A stretch of 64,000 bases of DNA from NCBI GenBank assembly GCA_963815195.1, contig CAWFGE010000018.1, forward strand, positions 64,001 to 128,000, given 5' to 3'. Below the pieces are notes generated by a model. That model searched no databases and was not told the DNA's origin. It saw only the letters and a program-made list of their open reading frames with translations. Source of the DNA: an uncultured Planctomycetaceae bacterium. GTDB taxonomy: Bacteria; Planctomycetota; Planctomycetia; Planctomycetales; Planctomycetaceae. Position numbers and translations under genes: made by a program. Positions 21,443 to 24,943 of this stretch are shown piece by piece. Numbering within the stretch: the first letter of the stretch is position 1; every line of letters starts with the position of its first letter.

Positions 21443-21914
21443 GGCGATCGCGTTTCCAACAAAAGATGTTGTCAAAATCAGCCGCAGGGCGCTAGGCTGG
21501 GCTGTTAAGAAATTGGTATTGAAGTCTAAAAACGCGGGTTCTGGCTTGCGCCACCTTTGTTCTCGTTTTTTTGGAAAGCATTAGGGCCGAAGGCCCGGCT
21601 CTCTGTCAGCCCAGGGCCAGCGCAGCGCCGCCCTGGGTTACGGATGTAATGAAACGCAAGCCCCAAGGGGGCGGCCCACGTGGCTCTCGCCACGGAACAA
21701 GGCATTGCGGATTTCCGAATTCGGGCCGCCCCGTTGGGGCTTCGGCATTTTGTTCGTTCCCGTTCCCAGGGCTGCGCCCTTATAGGATTTGCTGAGGGAT
21801 GGATCGGCCGCGGGAGAGGGCGGGGGGACGCAAGTCTCTCCCCACGGACTCTTCCGCGCCGGAGCCGATCCAGCGCCGTTTTTTTCCTGTTTTTCCAGCC
21901 CCAACTTTGAGAGG

Positions 21915-22097
21915 ATCAAAATCAGGCACGCGTCGCCCCGCTACGAATCGTGCGCCCCATCGCTTCAACGATTGAGCCCAGACTTTCGAGCGGGACGATG
22001 CTCTTGGGAACCAACGAATCACTCCAGATGATGACGCCAAAACGTCTCGGACTATAAGGTTTTCGCCCGCTCCCAAGATCGCGTGCCCTTTTTGATT
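21915..22097 (+). ncRNA. IS110 bridge RNA (target- and donor-binding loops); transcript probably starts near 21795
   Basis: Closing stem GGCACGCG/CGCGTGCC. Loop 1 has TGCGCCC and AGCCCAG (target); loop 2 has CAGATG and CTATAAG (donor). Each guide pair is separated by a short hairpin. Confidence 0.88.
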
Positions 22098-22127
22098 GTG
22101 TTTCACTTTAACAGGAGACGATCCCCC

Positions 22128-23411
22128 ATGCACTCGAATTTGCTCGACCCCAATGCCTGTGTGCTGATCGGCCTCGATTGGGCCGACCGCGAACATGCCG
22201 TCTGCCGGCTGCTTCCCGACGGCGGAACCGAACACCGGCAACTCGAACACACGCCCGAAGCGATTGCCGACTGGCTCGCCGGCCTGCGGAAGCAATTCCC
22301 CGGTCGCCCGATTCGGATCGCGTTGGAGCAAAGCCGCGGCGCGCTGATGAACGCGCTCCGCCGTTTCGCCGACCTGGAACTCGAACTGTATCCCATCAAT
22401 CCCAAGCAGCTGGCCCGCTATCGGGACGCGATTCATCCTTCGGGAGCGAAATCCGATCCAGACGATGCGCAGCTCTTGGCCCGCTTTCTGCAAAACCATC
22501 AGGAGCAACTCCTCCCGTTCGTGGCGGACGATCCCGAAACCCGCCGCCTGGCCGAGTTGTCCGAACTTCGCCGCAAGCTGGTCGATGACCGCAAAACCCT
22601 TGTGCAGAAGCTCGAAGGCACGCTCAAGCTGTATTTTCCGCAACTGCTCGAATGGTGTGCCGGCAAGAGTCGCCAACCCCTGTTGCTCGCCGTGCTTCGC
22701 CGCTGGCCGAGCTTGGGCGATCTTAAGCGGGCTCATCCCAAAACGCTGCGCACGTTCCTCGCCGAGCATGGCCTGCGGAACCCCGACCAGCAAACCGAGT
22801 GGATCGACAACGTCCGCCCCGCCACCCCGTTGACCGAGGATGCCAGTTTGATCGAACCCCGCGCGATGTACGCCCAAAGTCTCGGCCGGCAAATCGAGGA
22901 ACTGAACGAGGCCATTGCCAAATTCGAGAAGCAACTGGACGAGGCGACCGCCGCGCATCCCGACCACGAACTGTTCCGCTCGCTGCCCGGTGCCGGCGAC
23001 GTCCTCACGCCGCGACTCATCGTGGCGATGGGCTCCGACCGGGACCGCTACCAAGACGCCGGGGACGTGCAATCCAAAAGCGGCATCGCCCCGATCACCA
23101 AGCAAAGCGGGAAGACCCGGCTCGTGTTGTCGCGAATCGCCTGCCCCAAATTTCTCCGGCAGACATTCCACGAGTTCGCCGACCAGGCCCGCCGCTGGAG
23201 CGATTGGTCCCGAGCGTTCTATCAAATGAAACGCGCGGCCGGCATGAGCCACCACGCCGCGGTCCGCGCCTTGGCCTTCAAATGGATTCGCATCATCTTT
23301 CGGATGTGGCAAACCGGCACCCCTTACTCGGAAATGAAGTACCAGGAACAACTCACAATCAGAAACAGCCCCGTCTGGAATTTATTGGAAACAACAACAG
23401 AAACCACCTGA
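22128..23411 (+). CDS. IS110 family transposase/recombinase
   Basis: RuvC-like DEDD (IGLD, IALE, KSDPDDA), coiled coil, C-terminal LPGAG..SGIAP..QSG; AGGAG RBS. Confidence 0.95.
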   Translation: MHSNLLDPNACVLIGLDWADREHAVCRLLPDGGTEHRQLEHTPEAIADWLAGLRKQFPGRPIRIALEQSRGALMNALRRFADLELELYPINPKQLARYRDAIHPSGAKSDPDDAQLLARFLQNHQEQLLPFVADDPETRRLAELSELRRKLVDDRKTLVQKLEGTLKLYFPQLLEWCAGKSRQPLLLAVLRRWPSLGDLKRAHPKTLRTFLAEHGLRNPDQQTEWIDNVRPATPLTEDASLIEPRAMYAQSLGRQIEELNEAIAKFEKQLDEATAAHPDHELFRSLPGAGDVLTPRLIVAMGSDRDRYQDAGDVQSKSGIAPITKQSGKTRLVLSRIACPKFLRQTFHEFADQARRWSDWSRAFYQMKRAAGMSHHAAVRALAFKWIRIIFRMWQTGTPYSEMKYQEQLTIRNSPVWNLLETTTETT

Positions 23412-23658
23412 AACCCACTTGAAAAAACCTCAGATGTCTGGGCTGACAGAGGGCCGGACCTTCGGTCCTTATTTCTCAAATTTGAAACAGTTGAATTTAC
23501 GAACGGTCGAAAAGCTCCGCAAAGACAAATCGTCGTCAACACCAAATTTTTAACGGCCCAGCGCTAGCCCCGGTTCATCGCGCAGGGCGCGTAGTCCCGG
23601 TTCATCGCTGCGCGAACCGGACGCTAGCACATACCGGCTGAGGGACCTTGGATGCCGA

Positions 23659-24770
<1,112 letters not shown>

Positions 24771-24943
24771 TGCGGTGTTCCTTGCGGTGGGAGTTGAATT
24801 GTTATTTGTGCCGGTGACCATGTCCCTCTCCTTGTGTGAAATGCTCCAAAAGAAACAAACGAATAGTATGTTCCTTTACGACTTAACACAAGTGGACATT
24901 CTGGACAAAATTCAAGTTTTTTTGAGAATTCCAAAAAAACCGC

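What the first reader, a model, noticed from the sequence alone, without database searches (positions are those of the whole stretch)
21915..22097. IS110 bridge RNA whose two loops encode this element's own target and donor sites
Seen: the empty target is ...CTGCGCC-CT-GGGCT... and the circle (donor) junction is ...CAGATGT-CT-TATAG.... The non-coding left end folds into a closing stem (GGCACGCG 21925-21932 / CGCGTGCC 22080-22087) holding two stem-loops. Loop 1 (stem CCCGCT.CGAA / TTCG.AGCGGG) contains TGCGCCC (21951-21957, equal to the left target), an ATCG/CGAT hairpin, and AGCCCAG (21975-21981, the reverse complement of core plus right target). Loop 2 (stem TCTTGGGA / TCCCAAGA) contains CAGATG (22025-22030, equal to the left donor), a GACG/CGTC hairpin, and CTATAAG (22052-22058, the reverse complement of core plus right donor). 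Known: IS110/IS621-type recombinases use a bispecific bridge RNA with this layout. Inference: this is an intact, reprogrammable RNA-guided recombinase from a planctomycete, with a larger (427-aa) enzyme and its own specificity.
Basis: partly seen in the sequence, partly recalled or inferred. Interest (0 to 1): 0.93.

Follow-up and report, generated by a model that had tools for sequence, protein, structure and literature searches.

The report
Bridge RNA of a planctomycete IS110
The flagged stretch is a genuine guide ("bridge") RNA gene inside a small jumping gene, and its two loops spell out the element's insertion site and its own joined ends; this is one more natural example of a mechanism described in 2024, not a new kind of system.

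Summary
Window 21779-23439 is a 1659-bp IS110-group insertion sequence. It has CT cores at both ends, a 347-nt left end, a 26-nt right end, and a 427-aa DEDD/Ser recombinase gene (22128-23411).

The genome holds five copies. All sit at the same point in a dispersed MITE-like repeat, and unoccupied copies of that site exist.

The left end folds into a closing helix that holds two stem-loops with internal loops.

A covariance model finds the same RNA upstream of 42 related recombinase genes. In these relatives:
- Helices covary (26 of 43 pairs compensatory).
- The target loop changes with the flanks. Left target: 5.6 of 7 cognate against 3.2 non-cognate. Right target: 15 of 20 perfect.
- The donor-loop handshake base pairs with target position 7 in 27 of 28 elements.

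The predicted protein fold is closest to the IS621 and ISCro4 bridge recombinases.

Not shown: the transcript, the DNA circle, activity, or engineered reprogramming.

Verdict: a new member of a known kind (Durrant 2024, Hiraizumi 2024). The scan has already noted 22 such findings on other DNA. Local peculiarities are the closing helix, the long leader, the short left donor guide and an inserted helical domain.

The parts
21772..21778 (+). Left target half (target positions 1-7, CTGCGCC) in the flanking repeat
   Evidence: Same flank at all 5 copies. Positions 2-7 plus the core C equal RNA 21951-21957.
21779..21780 (+). Left copy of the CT core dinucleotide
   Evidence: CT is the only sequence shared by the two junctions. 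The empty site carries a single CT.
21781..22127 (+). Left non-coding end (347 nt). It begins with the right donor half TATAG (also a -10-like hexamer) and has a roughly 140-nt leader with a long GC-rich hairpin (about 21800-21872) before the bridge-RNA module.
   Evidence: The leader is only weakly conserved among 7 relatives.
21924..22088 (+). [quoted passage not shown]
   Evidence: Covariance model R1 scores 161.6 bits (E 2.7e-36). 89.7% of cells are paired, and 26 of 43 pairs show compensatory change. The module is identical in all 5 genome copies.
21948..21958 (+). 5' strand of the target-binding loop. The left target guide is 21951-21957.
   Evidence: Matches target positions 2-8. Across 28 elements the cognate left-target score is 5.61 of 7 against 3.23 non-cognate.
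21973..21984 (+). 3' strand of the target-binding loop. The right target guide is 21975-21981 (complement of core plus GGGCT). The handshake bases are A21982 and C21983 (complement of donor positions 7 and 6).
   Evidence: The right target is perfect in 15 of 20 elements. The handshake base follows the donor in L075.
22019..22032 (+). 5' strand of the donor-binding loop. The left donor guide is 22025-22030 (donor positions 1-6). A22031 and U22032 do not match donor position 7 or the core C.
   Evidence: These two positions vary among homologues, and some carry the matching TC.
22047..22061 (+). 3' strand of the donor-binding loop. The right donor guide is 22052-22058 (complement of core plus TATAG). 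The handshake base G22059 is the complement of target position 7.
   Evidence: The handshake base pairs with target position 7 in 27 of 28 elements, using three pair types.
22128..23411 (+). Recombinase gene, 427 aa: a RuvC-like DEDD domain, a coiled coil with an inserted helical bundle (about residues 171-238), and a Tnp domain with the catalytic Ser327
   Evidence: Pfam. PDB sequence search finds ISCro4 at E 2.1e-9 and IS621 at E 2e-7. AlphaFold2 model has pLDDT 84.5. Foldseek's best matches are IS621 8wt9/8wt6 and ISCro4 9t56, TM-score by target 0.75-0.78.
23412..23437 (+). Right non-coding end (26 nt). It holds a -35-like TTGAAA at 23419-23424 and the left donor half CAGATGT at 23431-23437.
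   Evidence: A TTG(A/C)NN hexamer lies at this place in 22 of 22 homologues with a mapped right end.
23438..23439 (+). Right copy of the CT core
23440..23444 (+). Right target half (GGGCT)
   Evidence: Same at all 5 copies. It is the complement of RNA 21975-21979.
21585..21778 (.). Body of the MITE-like dispersed repeat that carries the target (limits approximate). It continues at about 23440-23475 beyond the element. The insertion point lies in the 3' arm of a CCCAGGG/CCCTGGG hairpin at the inner edge of one terminal inverted repeat.
   Evidence: Alignment of 10 empty copies with the window's flanks. 17 sites in the genome.

Best explanation
This is an IS110-group insertion sequence that carries its own bridge RNA.

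Inferred cycle, by analogy with IS621:
1. The element excises as a circle.
2. Joining the right and left ends brings a -35-like hexamer in the right end next to a -10-like TATAGG at the start of the left end.
3. Transcription from this junction gives an RNA that contains the two-loop module at 21924-22088.
4. The 427-aa DEDD/Ser recombinase binds this RNA.
5. The first loop reads the target. [quoted passage not shown] 6. The second loop reads the circle junction. Its 5' strand pairs with donor positions 1-6. Its 3' strand pairs with the core plus TATAG.
7. Strands are exchanged at the CT core. This is helped by handshake bases next to each 3' guide, which pair with the other DNA (A21982/C21983 with donor T7/G6; G22059 with target C7).

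The natural target is one inner edge of a terminal inverted repeat of a dispersed MITE-like repeat.

Shown here: the anatomy, the conserved and covarying fold, the guide-target and handshake covariation, the family and fold of the protein, and the five same-site copies with empty sites.

Inferred: transcription, circle formation, RNA-protein binding and catalysis.
For: Element and copies
- Ends and core.
- Five copies lie at the identical point of the same repeat. Four are full length and nearly identical, and one has an internal deletion of about 295 bp.
- An exact empty site and 16 near-matches exist, with 0 in the control.
- The RNA module is identical in all five copies and occurs nowhere else in the genome.

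Fold
- z -3.95.
- RNAalifold finds 27 of 46 pairs with compensatory change.
- With the curated structure, 89.7% of cells pair and 26 of 43 pairs are compensatory, with 0 of 500 shuffles as good. Slid controls give 29-41% paired.
- Model R1 finds 43 sense-strand modules in 67 sources, all upstream of IS110-type genes.

Covariation
- Left target: cognate 5.61 of 7 against 3.23, n = 28.
- Right target: 4.6 of 5 against 2.29, n = 20, with 15 perfect.
- Both permutation p <= 5e-5.
- The donor-loop handshake base pairs with target position 7 in 27 of 28 (G-C 19, C-G 6, A-U 2; p <= 5e-5).
- The donor loop and the donor ends are conserved while the target loop varies. Durrant et al. describe the same pattern (PMC11208160, passages read).

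Protein.

Junction promoter: the -35-like hexamer is conserved in 22 of 22 mapped right ends, 13-16 nt before the core.
Against: - No transcript evidence. No RNA run is listed, and no sigma-70-like promoter is found in the integrated element (0 sites).
- The -35 to TATAGG spacing across the junction is only 15 nt in this element (17 nt to TAGGAT).
- The left donor guide pairs with only 6 donor positions and not with position 7 or the core. The left target guide does not cover the core T. In IS621 these guides cover 8 and 9 positions (PMC11208158).
- Three of the five copies have broken reading frames. The assembly may also carry indel errors, since recA nearby is split by two 1-nt shifts.
- The covariation statistics treat related elements as independent after removing only identical loops, so the p-values are overstated.
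- Boundaries could be set by exact guide match for only 30 (left) and 22 (right) of 43 elements.
Confidence: 0.9

Rival explanations
1. A recently dead element. The RNA gene and guides are real by descent, but this family no longer moves in this genome, because no RNA or no active enzyme is made.
For: Three of five copies carry frameshifts or a deletion in the gene. No promoter-like site is found in the integrated state. There is no RNA evidence.
Against: The window copy and the C13 copy have full 427-aa frames differing at 1 nt. All catalytic residues are present. The copies are nearly identical, which points to recent spread. In IS621 the promoter is expected only in the circle (PMC11208160).
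Confidence: 0.07
2. The structured left end is only a cis-acting leader, for example a recombinase-binding or translational control element. The matches to the flanks would then be chance, or sequence carried over from the target.
For: The target is GC-rich and palindromic, and the loops are short. The composition-preserving shuffle for the left target guide alone gives only p = 0.034.
Against: The joint probability of the four matches is about 3e-9. The matches have the split sense/antisense layout of bridge RNAs. Loops change with flanks across 20-28 elements, and the handshake base tracks target position 7 in 27 of 28. Simple carry-over of target DNA would not produce these patterns.
Confidence: 0.02
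3. An IS1111-type arrangement, with the guide (seek) RNA encoded after the gene in the right end.
For: None found here.
Against: The right end is only 26 nt. The single hit of the model lies in the left end.
Confidence: 0.01

Closest known systems
IS621 of Escherichia coli with its 177-nt bridge RNA (Durrant et al. 2024, PMC11208160; Hiraizumi et al. 2024, PMC11208158; PDB 8wt6-8wt9)
   Same: - Same domain pair and same predicted fold (Foldseek TM-score by target 0.75-0.78).
- CT core, long left end and short right end.
- RNA in the left end with a variable target loop followed by a conserved donor loop.
- 5' strands equal the top strand of the left halves, and 3' strands complement the core plus the right halves.
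- A handshake base next to each 3' guide.
- -35 in the right end and -10 at the start of the left end.
- The target lies in a palindromic repeat.
   Different: - Only 17-19% identity in the structural alignment, and phmmer E 2e-7.
- 427 aa against 326-328 aa, with an inserted helical bundle at about 171-238.
- A 7-bp covarying closing helix ties both loops into one three-way junction. [quoted passage not shown]
- The module starts about 145 nt into the left end rather than at the junction.
- The left donor guide pairs with 6 positions instead of 8, and the left target guide with 7 instead of 9.
ISCro4 bridge recombinase (PDB 9t56)
   Same: Best sequence match among solved structures (E 2.1e-9). 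Same fold (TM-score by target 0.76-0.77, 19% identity).
   Different: Distant in sequence, 341 aa, and without the inserted bundle. Its RNA was not compared.
ISfinder elements ISCfr13, ISCps4, ISCps5 and ISEsa2, one cluster in the tree table of Durrant et al. (Supplementary Table 1)
   Same: The row printed shares long motifs with the window's protein in both domains (for example ALEQSRGAL, PSGAKSD, SLPGAG, FLRQTFHE-like). This is probably the same subfamily. A Colwellia locus (L077) is also among my hits.
   Different: Identity was not measured, because I did not feed the supplement's sequence into a tool. Their hosts are Proteobacteria. I did not see what bridge RNA was predicted for them, and the stored supplement file is cut.
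ISPpu10 and ISPpu9 of Pseudomonas putida (bioRxiv 10.64898/2026.03.19.712850, abstract read; PMC12288879, listing only)
   Same: IS110 elements that insert into many copies of one conserved intergenic or REP sequence able to form a GC-rich stem-loop. Here the target also lies in a GC-rich hairpin of a dispersed repeat.
   Different: Whether the hairpin adds specificity here is untested. The repeat here is a roughly 300-bp MITE-like unit with terminal inverted repeats, not a short REP.

Membership tests
IS110 family, IS110 group (bridge recombinase elements) | Recombinase with an N-terminal RuvC-like DEDD domain and a C-terminal Tnp domain carrying a catalytic Ser | tested here: met
   PF01548 E 3.7e-25 and PF02371 E 8.8e-14. 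In the 23-sequence alignment, D17 and E67 are conserved in 23 of 23, D110 and D113 in 22 of 23, and S327 in 21 of 23. E67, D110, D113 and S327 are invariant and D17 nearly invariant in the 20-sequence alignment. Fold is closest to IS621 and ISCro4.
IS110 family, IS110 group (bridge recombinase elements) | No terminal inverted repeats; a short core (usually CT) present once in the empty site and at both junctions; long left end and short right end | tested here: met
   CT at 21779-21780 and 23438-23439. The empty site carries one CT. Left end 347 nt, right end 26 nt.
Bridge RNA (IS621 type) | Structured non-coding RNA in the left end with two stem-loops, each with a large internal loop around a small hairpin | tested here: met
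   Fold. Covariation: 26 of 43 pairs compensatory, 0 of 500 shuffles as good. 43 homologous modules.
Bridge RNA (IS621 type) | First-loop guides match the element's own target, with the 5' strand in sense and the 3' strand in antisense, and they covary with targets across relatives | tested here: met
   7 + 7 nt in the window. Cognate against non-cognate scores of 5.61 vs 3.23 and 4.6 vs 2.29.
Bridge RNA (IS621 type) | Second-loop guides match the joined right-left ends (the donor) | tested here: met
   6 nt (donor positions 1-6) and 7 nt (core plus TATAG) in the window. The exact right donor guide located a left end in 30 of 43 elements, and the exact left donor guide located a right end in 22 of 43. 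The left donor guide is shorter than in IS621.
Bridge RNA (IS621 type) | Handshake guides: bases 3' of each right guide pair with position 7 (and 6) of the non-cognate DNA | tested here: met
   Window: A21982/C21983 with donor T7/G6, and G22059 with target C7. U22060 does not pair with C6. 27 of 28 elements pair at position 7. Definition taken from PMC11208158.
Bridge RNA (IS621 type) | Promoter rebuilt across the circle junction, with the RNA transcribed from it | tested here: inconclusive
   A -35-like hexamer is conserved in 22 of 22 right ends, and TATAG starts most left ends. However, the spacing here is 15 nt, planctomycete promoters are poorly known, and no RNA run is available.
Bridge RNA (IS621 type) | The RNA binds the recombinase and directs recombination; changing the guides changes the specificity | not testable with these tools
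   Needs binding and recombination assays. Natural covariation is the only support.
Rfam families | Match to a curated covariance model | tested here: not met
   cmscan of 21500-23700 against Rfam 15 at E <= 1 gave only two weak, unrelated hits in the leader (RAGATH-31, E 0.12; mir-3155, E 0.82). Nothing fell on the module.

The most novel reading that the evidence does not exclude
This clade occurs in Planctomycetota, Acidobacteriota, Gemmatimonadota and some Proteobacteria. It may be a structurally distinct subclass of bridge systems, marked by four features:
- a covarying closing helix that locks the target and donor loops into one three-way junction;
- a roughly 140-nt structured leader;
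- a left donor guide that leaves donor position 7 and the core unpaired, with those two RNA positions drifting freely among relatives;
- a recombinase about 100 aa larger, with an extra helical bundle in the coiled-coil region.

If these features change how the donor is held, or how insertion and excision are balanced, the clade would be a mechanistically informative and orthogonal alternative to IS621 and ISCro4.
Probability: 0.3. Interest if true: 0.45.

Novelty: new member of a known kind. Interest (0 to 1): 0.3.

Why it matters
This adds a well-documented natural bridge system from a poorly studied phylum, and it comes with a ready-made comparative data set:
- about 40 related RNAs;
- 28 natural left-guide/target pairs and 20 right-guide/target pairs;
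- a handshake base that tracks the target.

Together these define the guide code of this clade:
- left target positions up to 8;
- right target positions 8-14;
- donor positions 1-6 and 8-14;
- handshake at position 7.

A distant enzyme (17-19% identity to IS621) with its own scaffold could serve as an orthogonal recombinase. The element also shows one mobile element living on another, an IS that homes to one end of a MITE-like repeat. None of this changes the known picture of how bridge recombination works.

Tried and rejected
- Rfam 15 search. No bridge-RNA family matched. There were only weak, unrelated hits in the leader.
- Public sequencing runs. No RNA holder is listed, so expression could not be examined.
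- Laying contigs of four metagenome runs. This gave only joints that skip the element, with small differences at the junction. I read these as other, empty copies of the dispersed repeat or of relatives. No circle junction can be seen in contigs.
- Sigma-70 scan of the integrated element. 0 promoter-like sites. My search by eye for an internal promoter just before the closing helix found nothing convincing.
- Terminator-like sites on the + strand inside the left end. None was called. The U-runs after the leader hairpin (21878-21884) and after the closing helix (22090-22094) remain uninterpreted. In the long fold the latter pairs with 21914-21921.
- Conserved structure in the leader. Consensus energy was only -0.57 kcal/mol across 7 relatives, so I make no claim.
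- Exact motifs of the window's protein in Durrant's Supplementary Table 1. None was found. Looser clade motifs found one related ISfinder cluster. The stored file is cut and one PDF supplement was unreadable, so absence means little.
- Literature search for IS110 together with Planctomycet. 12 papers hold both terms. None of the 11 listed titles or abstract starts describes such a bridge RNA (listing only).
- IS1111/seekRNA layout. Rejected on anatomy.
- Three weak minus-strand hits of the model (L019, L048, L044; 21-25 bits) overlapped the sense hits. I dropped them before all counts.

Full report
**The element**

Reading 21600-23900 shows a left junction ...CTGCGCC|CT|TATAG... and a right junction ...CAGATGT|CT|GGGCT.... 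Only CT is shared between the two. The element is therefore 1659 bp (21779-23437 or, equivalently, 21781-23439). It has a 347-nt left end, one gene (22128-23411, 427 aa) and a 26-nt right end.

The protein carries PF01548 (E 3.7e-25) and PF02371 (E 8.8e-14), the IS110-family pair.

The genome (8.87 Mb, 25 contigs) holds four full-length copies and one copy lacking about 295 bp of the gene. All five are flanked by the same sequence on both sides. The reconstructed empty site occurs once exactly and 16 more times within two mismatches, against none for a reversed control pattern.

Aligning ten empty copies with the window's flanks shows the target lies in a dispersed repeat of roughly 300 bp with terminal inverted repeats of about 35 bp. 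The crossover point sits in the 3' arm of a CCCAGGG/CCCTGGG hairpin at the inner edge of one repeat end.

**The observation**

The minimum-free-energy fold of 21915-22097 reproduces the layout (-65.4 kcal/mol, z -3.95). So does a fold of the whole left end.

The guides are as follows:
- RNA 21951-21957 equals target positions 2-7 plus the core C.
- RNA 21975-21981 is the complement of the core plus GGGCT.
- RNA 22025-22030 equals donor positions 1-6.
- RNA 22052-22058 is the complement of the core plus TATAG.

Shuffling each loop strand while keeping its composition gives p = 0.034, 0.0039, 0.014 and 0.0019 for matches this long, a product of about 3e-9.

Using the definition of handshake guides in Hiraizumi et al. 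(PMC11208158, passages read), I also find these bases. A21982 and C21983 follow the right target guide and pair with donor T7 and G6, not with the target. G22059 follows the right donor guide and pairs with target C7. U22060 does not pair with C6.

**Relatives and structure**

A phylum-wide sample found the protein in 15 of 401 genomes at E <= 1e-30, the window's own included. A scan of species-representative genomes gave 50 loci, with 31-61% identity in the best segment. They come mostly from Planctomycetota, Acidobacteriota and Gemmatimonadota metagenome-assembled genomes, plus a few Proteobacteria.

The left end is alignable by blastn in nine of these loci.

A ten-sequence alignment shows conserved stems, a conserved donor loop and a variable target loop. 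Durrant et al. report the same pattern (PMC11208160).
- RNAalifold finds 27 of 46 pairs with compensatory change.
- With a curated six-helix structure, 89.7% of cells pair and 26 of 43 pairs show compensatory change. 0 of 500 shuffles reach this, and sliding the partners drops pairing to 29-41%.
- The closing helix itself has 4 of 7 pairs with compensatory change.

The covariance model R1 found 46 matches in 67 sources. Three weak antisense overlaps were dropped. The other 43, including the window, lie upstream of the recombinase gene on its strand.

In the window's genome the model finds exactly the five IS copies. The module is identical in all of them.

For each of the 43 elements I located two boundaries:
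- the left end, by an exact match to the complement of its own right donor guide;
- the right end, by an exact match to its own left donor guide followed by N-N-T.

This used the donor loop only. It succeeded for 30 left ends with at least 7 nt of flank and for 22 right ends. The rest lacked flank or an exact match and were left out.

After removing identical loops, the target loop was compared with the flanks, allowing a one-base register slip in cognate and control comparisons alike.

| Comparison | Cognate | Non-cognate | n | Permutation p |
|---|---|---|---|---|
| Left target | 5.61 of 7 | 3.23 | 28 | <= 5e-5 |
| Right target | 4.6 of 5 (15 of 20 perfect) | 2.29 | 20 | <= 5e-5 |

The donor-loop handshake base pairs with target position 7 in 27 of 28 elements, using G-C (19), C-G (6) and A-U (2), with p <= 5e-5. 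In the one relative whose donor ends differently (L075), the target-loop handshake bases change to match.

These elements are related, and only identical loops were merged, so the p-values overstate the case. The direction and size of the effect are nonetheless clear. Homologues with other targets do not keep the same loop sequences, so the refutation test is passed.

**Departures from IS621**

- The left donor guide ends two bases short. A22031 and U22032 face donor T7 and the core C without matching. Among relatives these two positions vary (AU, AC, CU, CC, UG, UA, UC and others), and some carry the matching UC.
- The left target guide covers the core C but not the T. Some relatives cover both.
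- In IS621 these guides span 8 and 9 positions.
- A closing helix joins the two arms. [quoted passage not shown]
- The module starts about 145 nt inside the left end, after a long GC-rich hairpin and a U-rich stretch. That leader is only weakly conserved.

**Expression signals**

No sigma-70-like site is found in the integrated element.

Across the inferred circle junction, a TTG(A/C)NN hexamer lies 13-16 nt before the core in 22 of 22 mapped right ends. Most left ends begin with TATAG. This fits the junction promoter described for IS621. In this element the hexamers are TTGAAA and TATAGG with 15 nt between them, or TAGGAT at 17 nt.

No RNA run is on record, so transcription is inferred, not shown.

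**The protein**

- In a 23-sequence alignment, D17 and E67 are conserved in 23 of 23 sequences, D110 and D113 in 22 of 23, and S327 in 21 of 23. In a separate 20-sequence alignment, E67, D110, D113 and S327 are invariant and D17 is nearly invariant.
- Among solved structures, only ISCro4 (E 2.1e-9) and IS621 (E 2e-7) match by sequence. The alignment skips about residues 168-245.
- An AlphaFold2 model built on 20 sequences has mean pLDDT 84.5. The loop around S327 has low confidence.
- Foldseek ranks IS621 and ISCro4 chains first (E about 1e-13, TM-score by target 0.75-0.78, 17-19% identity). TIGR-TasR and Nop5-type proteins follow.
- The extra length is a bundle of short helices (about 171-238) between two long helices.
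- Relatives are of similar size (398-421 aa matched), so the larger enzyme is a clade trait.

**State of the copies**

The window copy and one other have full frames and differ at one base. One copy has a 1-nt insertion, one has several changes including a 2-nt deletion, and one has the internal deletion.

The genome's only recA, about 220-250 bp beyond the element's right end (its stop codon is at about 23659), is split by two single-base shifts. Some of these breaks may therefore be assembly errors.

**Host**

A genome placed in the same family as the window's (G137) is identical over the shared contig to a record titled Planctomycetaceae bacterium.

**What is known**

Bridge RNAs were described in 2024. 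Durrant et al. predicted them in 85.7% of ISfinder IS110-group elements and analysed 5,511 RNA-target pairs (PMC11208160, passages).

Their Supplementary Table 1 lists 31 Planctomycetes rows. It also has a cluster holding ISCfr13, ISCps4, ISCps5 and ISEsa2 whose printed domain sequences share long motifs with this protein.

This scan already holds 22 notes of the same kind in at least 16 genomes.

The finding is therefore correct, well supported and ordinary in kind. I rate it a new member of a known kind, interest 0.3.

Noticed in passing
window 23659-24821 (- strand); frame changes near 24405 and 24253: recA is split over three reading frames by two single-base shifts that are not in long homopolymers (profile positions 3-100, 94-148 and 143-262). 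No other recA above the Pfam cut-off exists in the genome. This is either a real disrupted recA or assembly indels, which bears on how far broken frames in this assembly can be trusted.
   Followed up: partly
window about 21585-21778 and 23440-23475; empty copies in L008-L017: A dispersed MITE-like repeat of roughly 300 bp with terminal inverted repeats of about 35 bp and GC-rich hairpins. At least 17 empty and 5 IS-occupied copies of the site exist. The other inverted-repeat end offers the right half of the target but only 3 of 7 left-half positions, so it is a possible half-match site.
   Followed up: partly
window 21800-21892: The left-end leader has a long GC-rich hairpin followed by two U-runs (21878-21884 and 21890-21894). 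It gives a weak Rfam RAGATH-31 hit (E 0.12) that I take as chance. Whether it acts as an attenuator or insulator before the bridge-RNA module is open.
   Followed up: partly
L043, L044, L062, L019 (flanks of related elements): Several relatives also sit in short GC-rich palindromes, with the CT core at or near the hairpin tip (for example GCACCCC/GGGGTGC around the core in L062). Hairpin targets may be general for this clade, which recalls the target stem-loop reported for ISPpu10.
   Followed up: no
L049, L054, L061, L064, L065, L068, L078 (Vicinamibacterales and other Acidobacteriota loci): A subgroup shares nearly the same target loop and a longer donor-loop hairpin, and it appears to read ...CCTCGCC before the core. 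The core could be read as CC or, shifted by one base, as CT.
   Followed up: no
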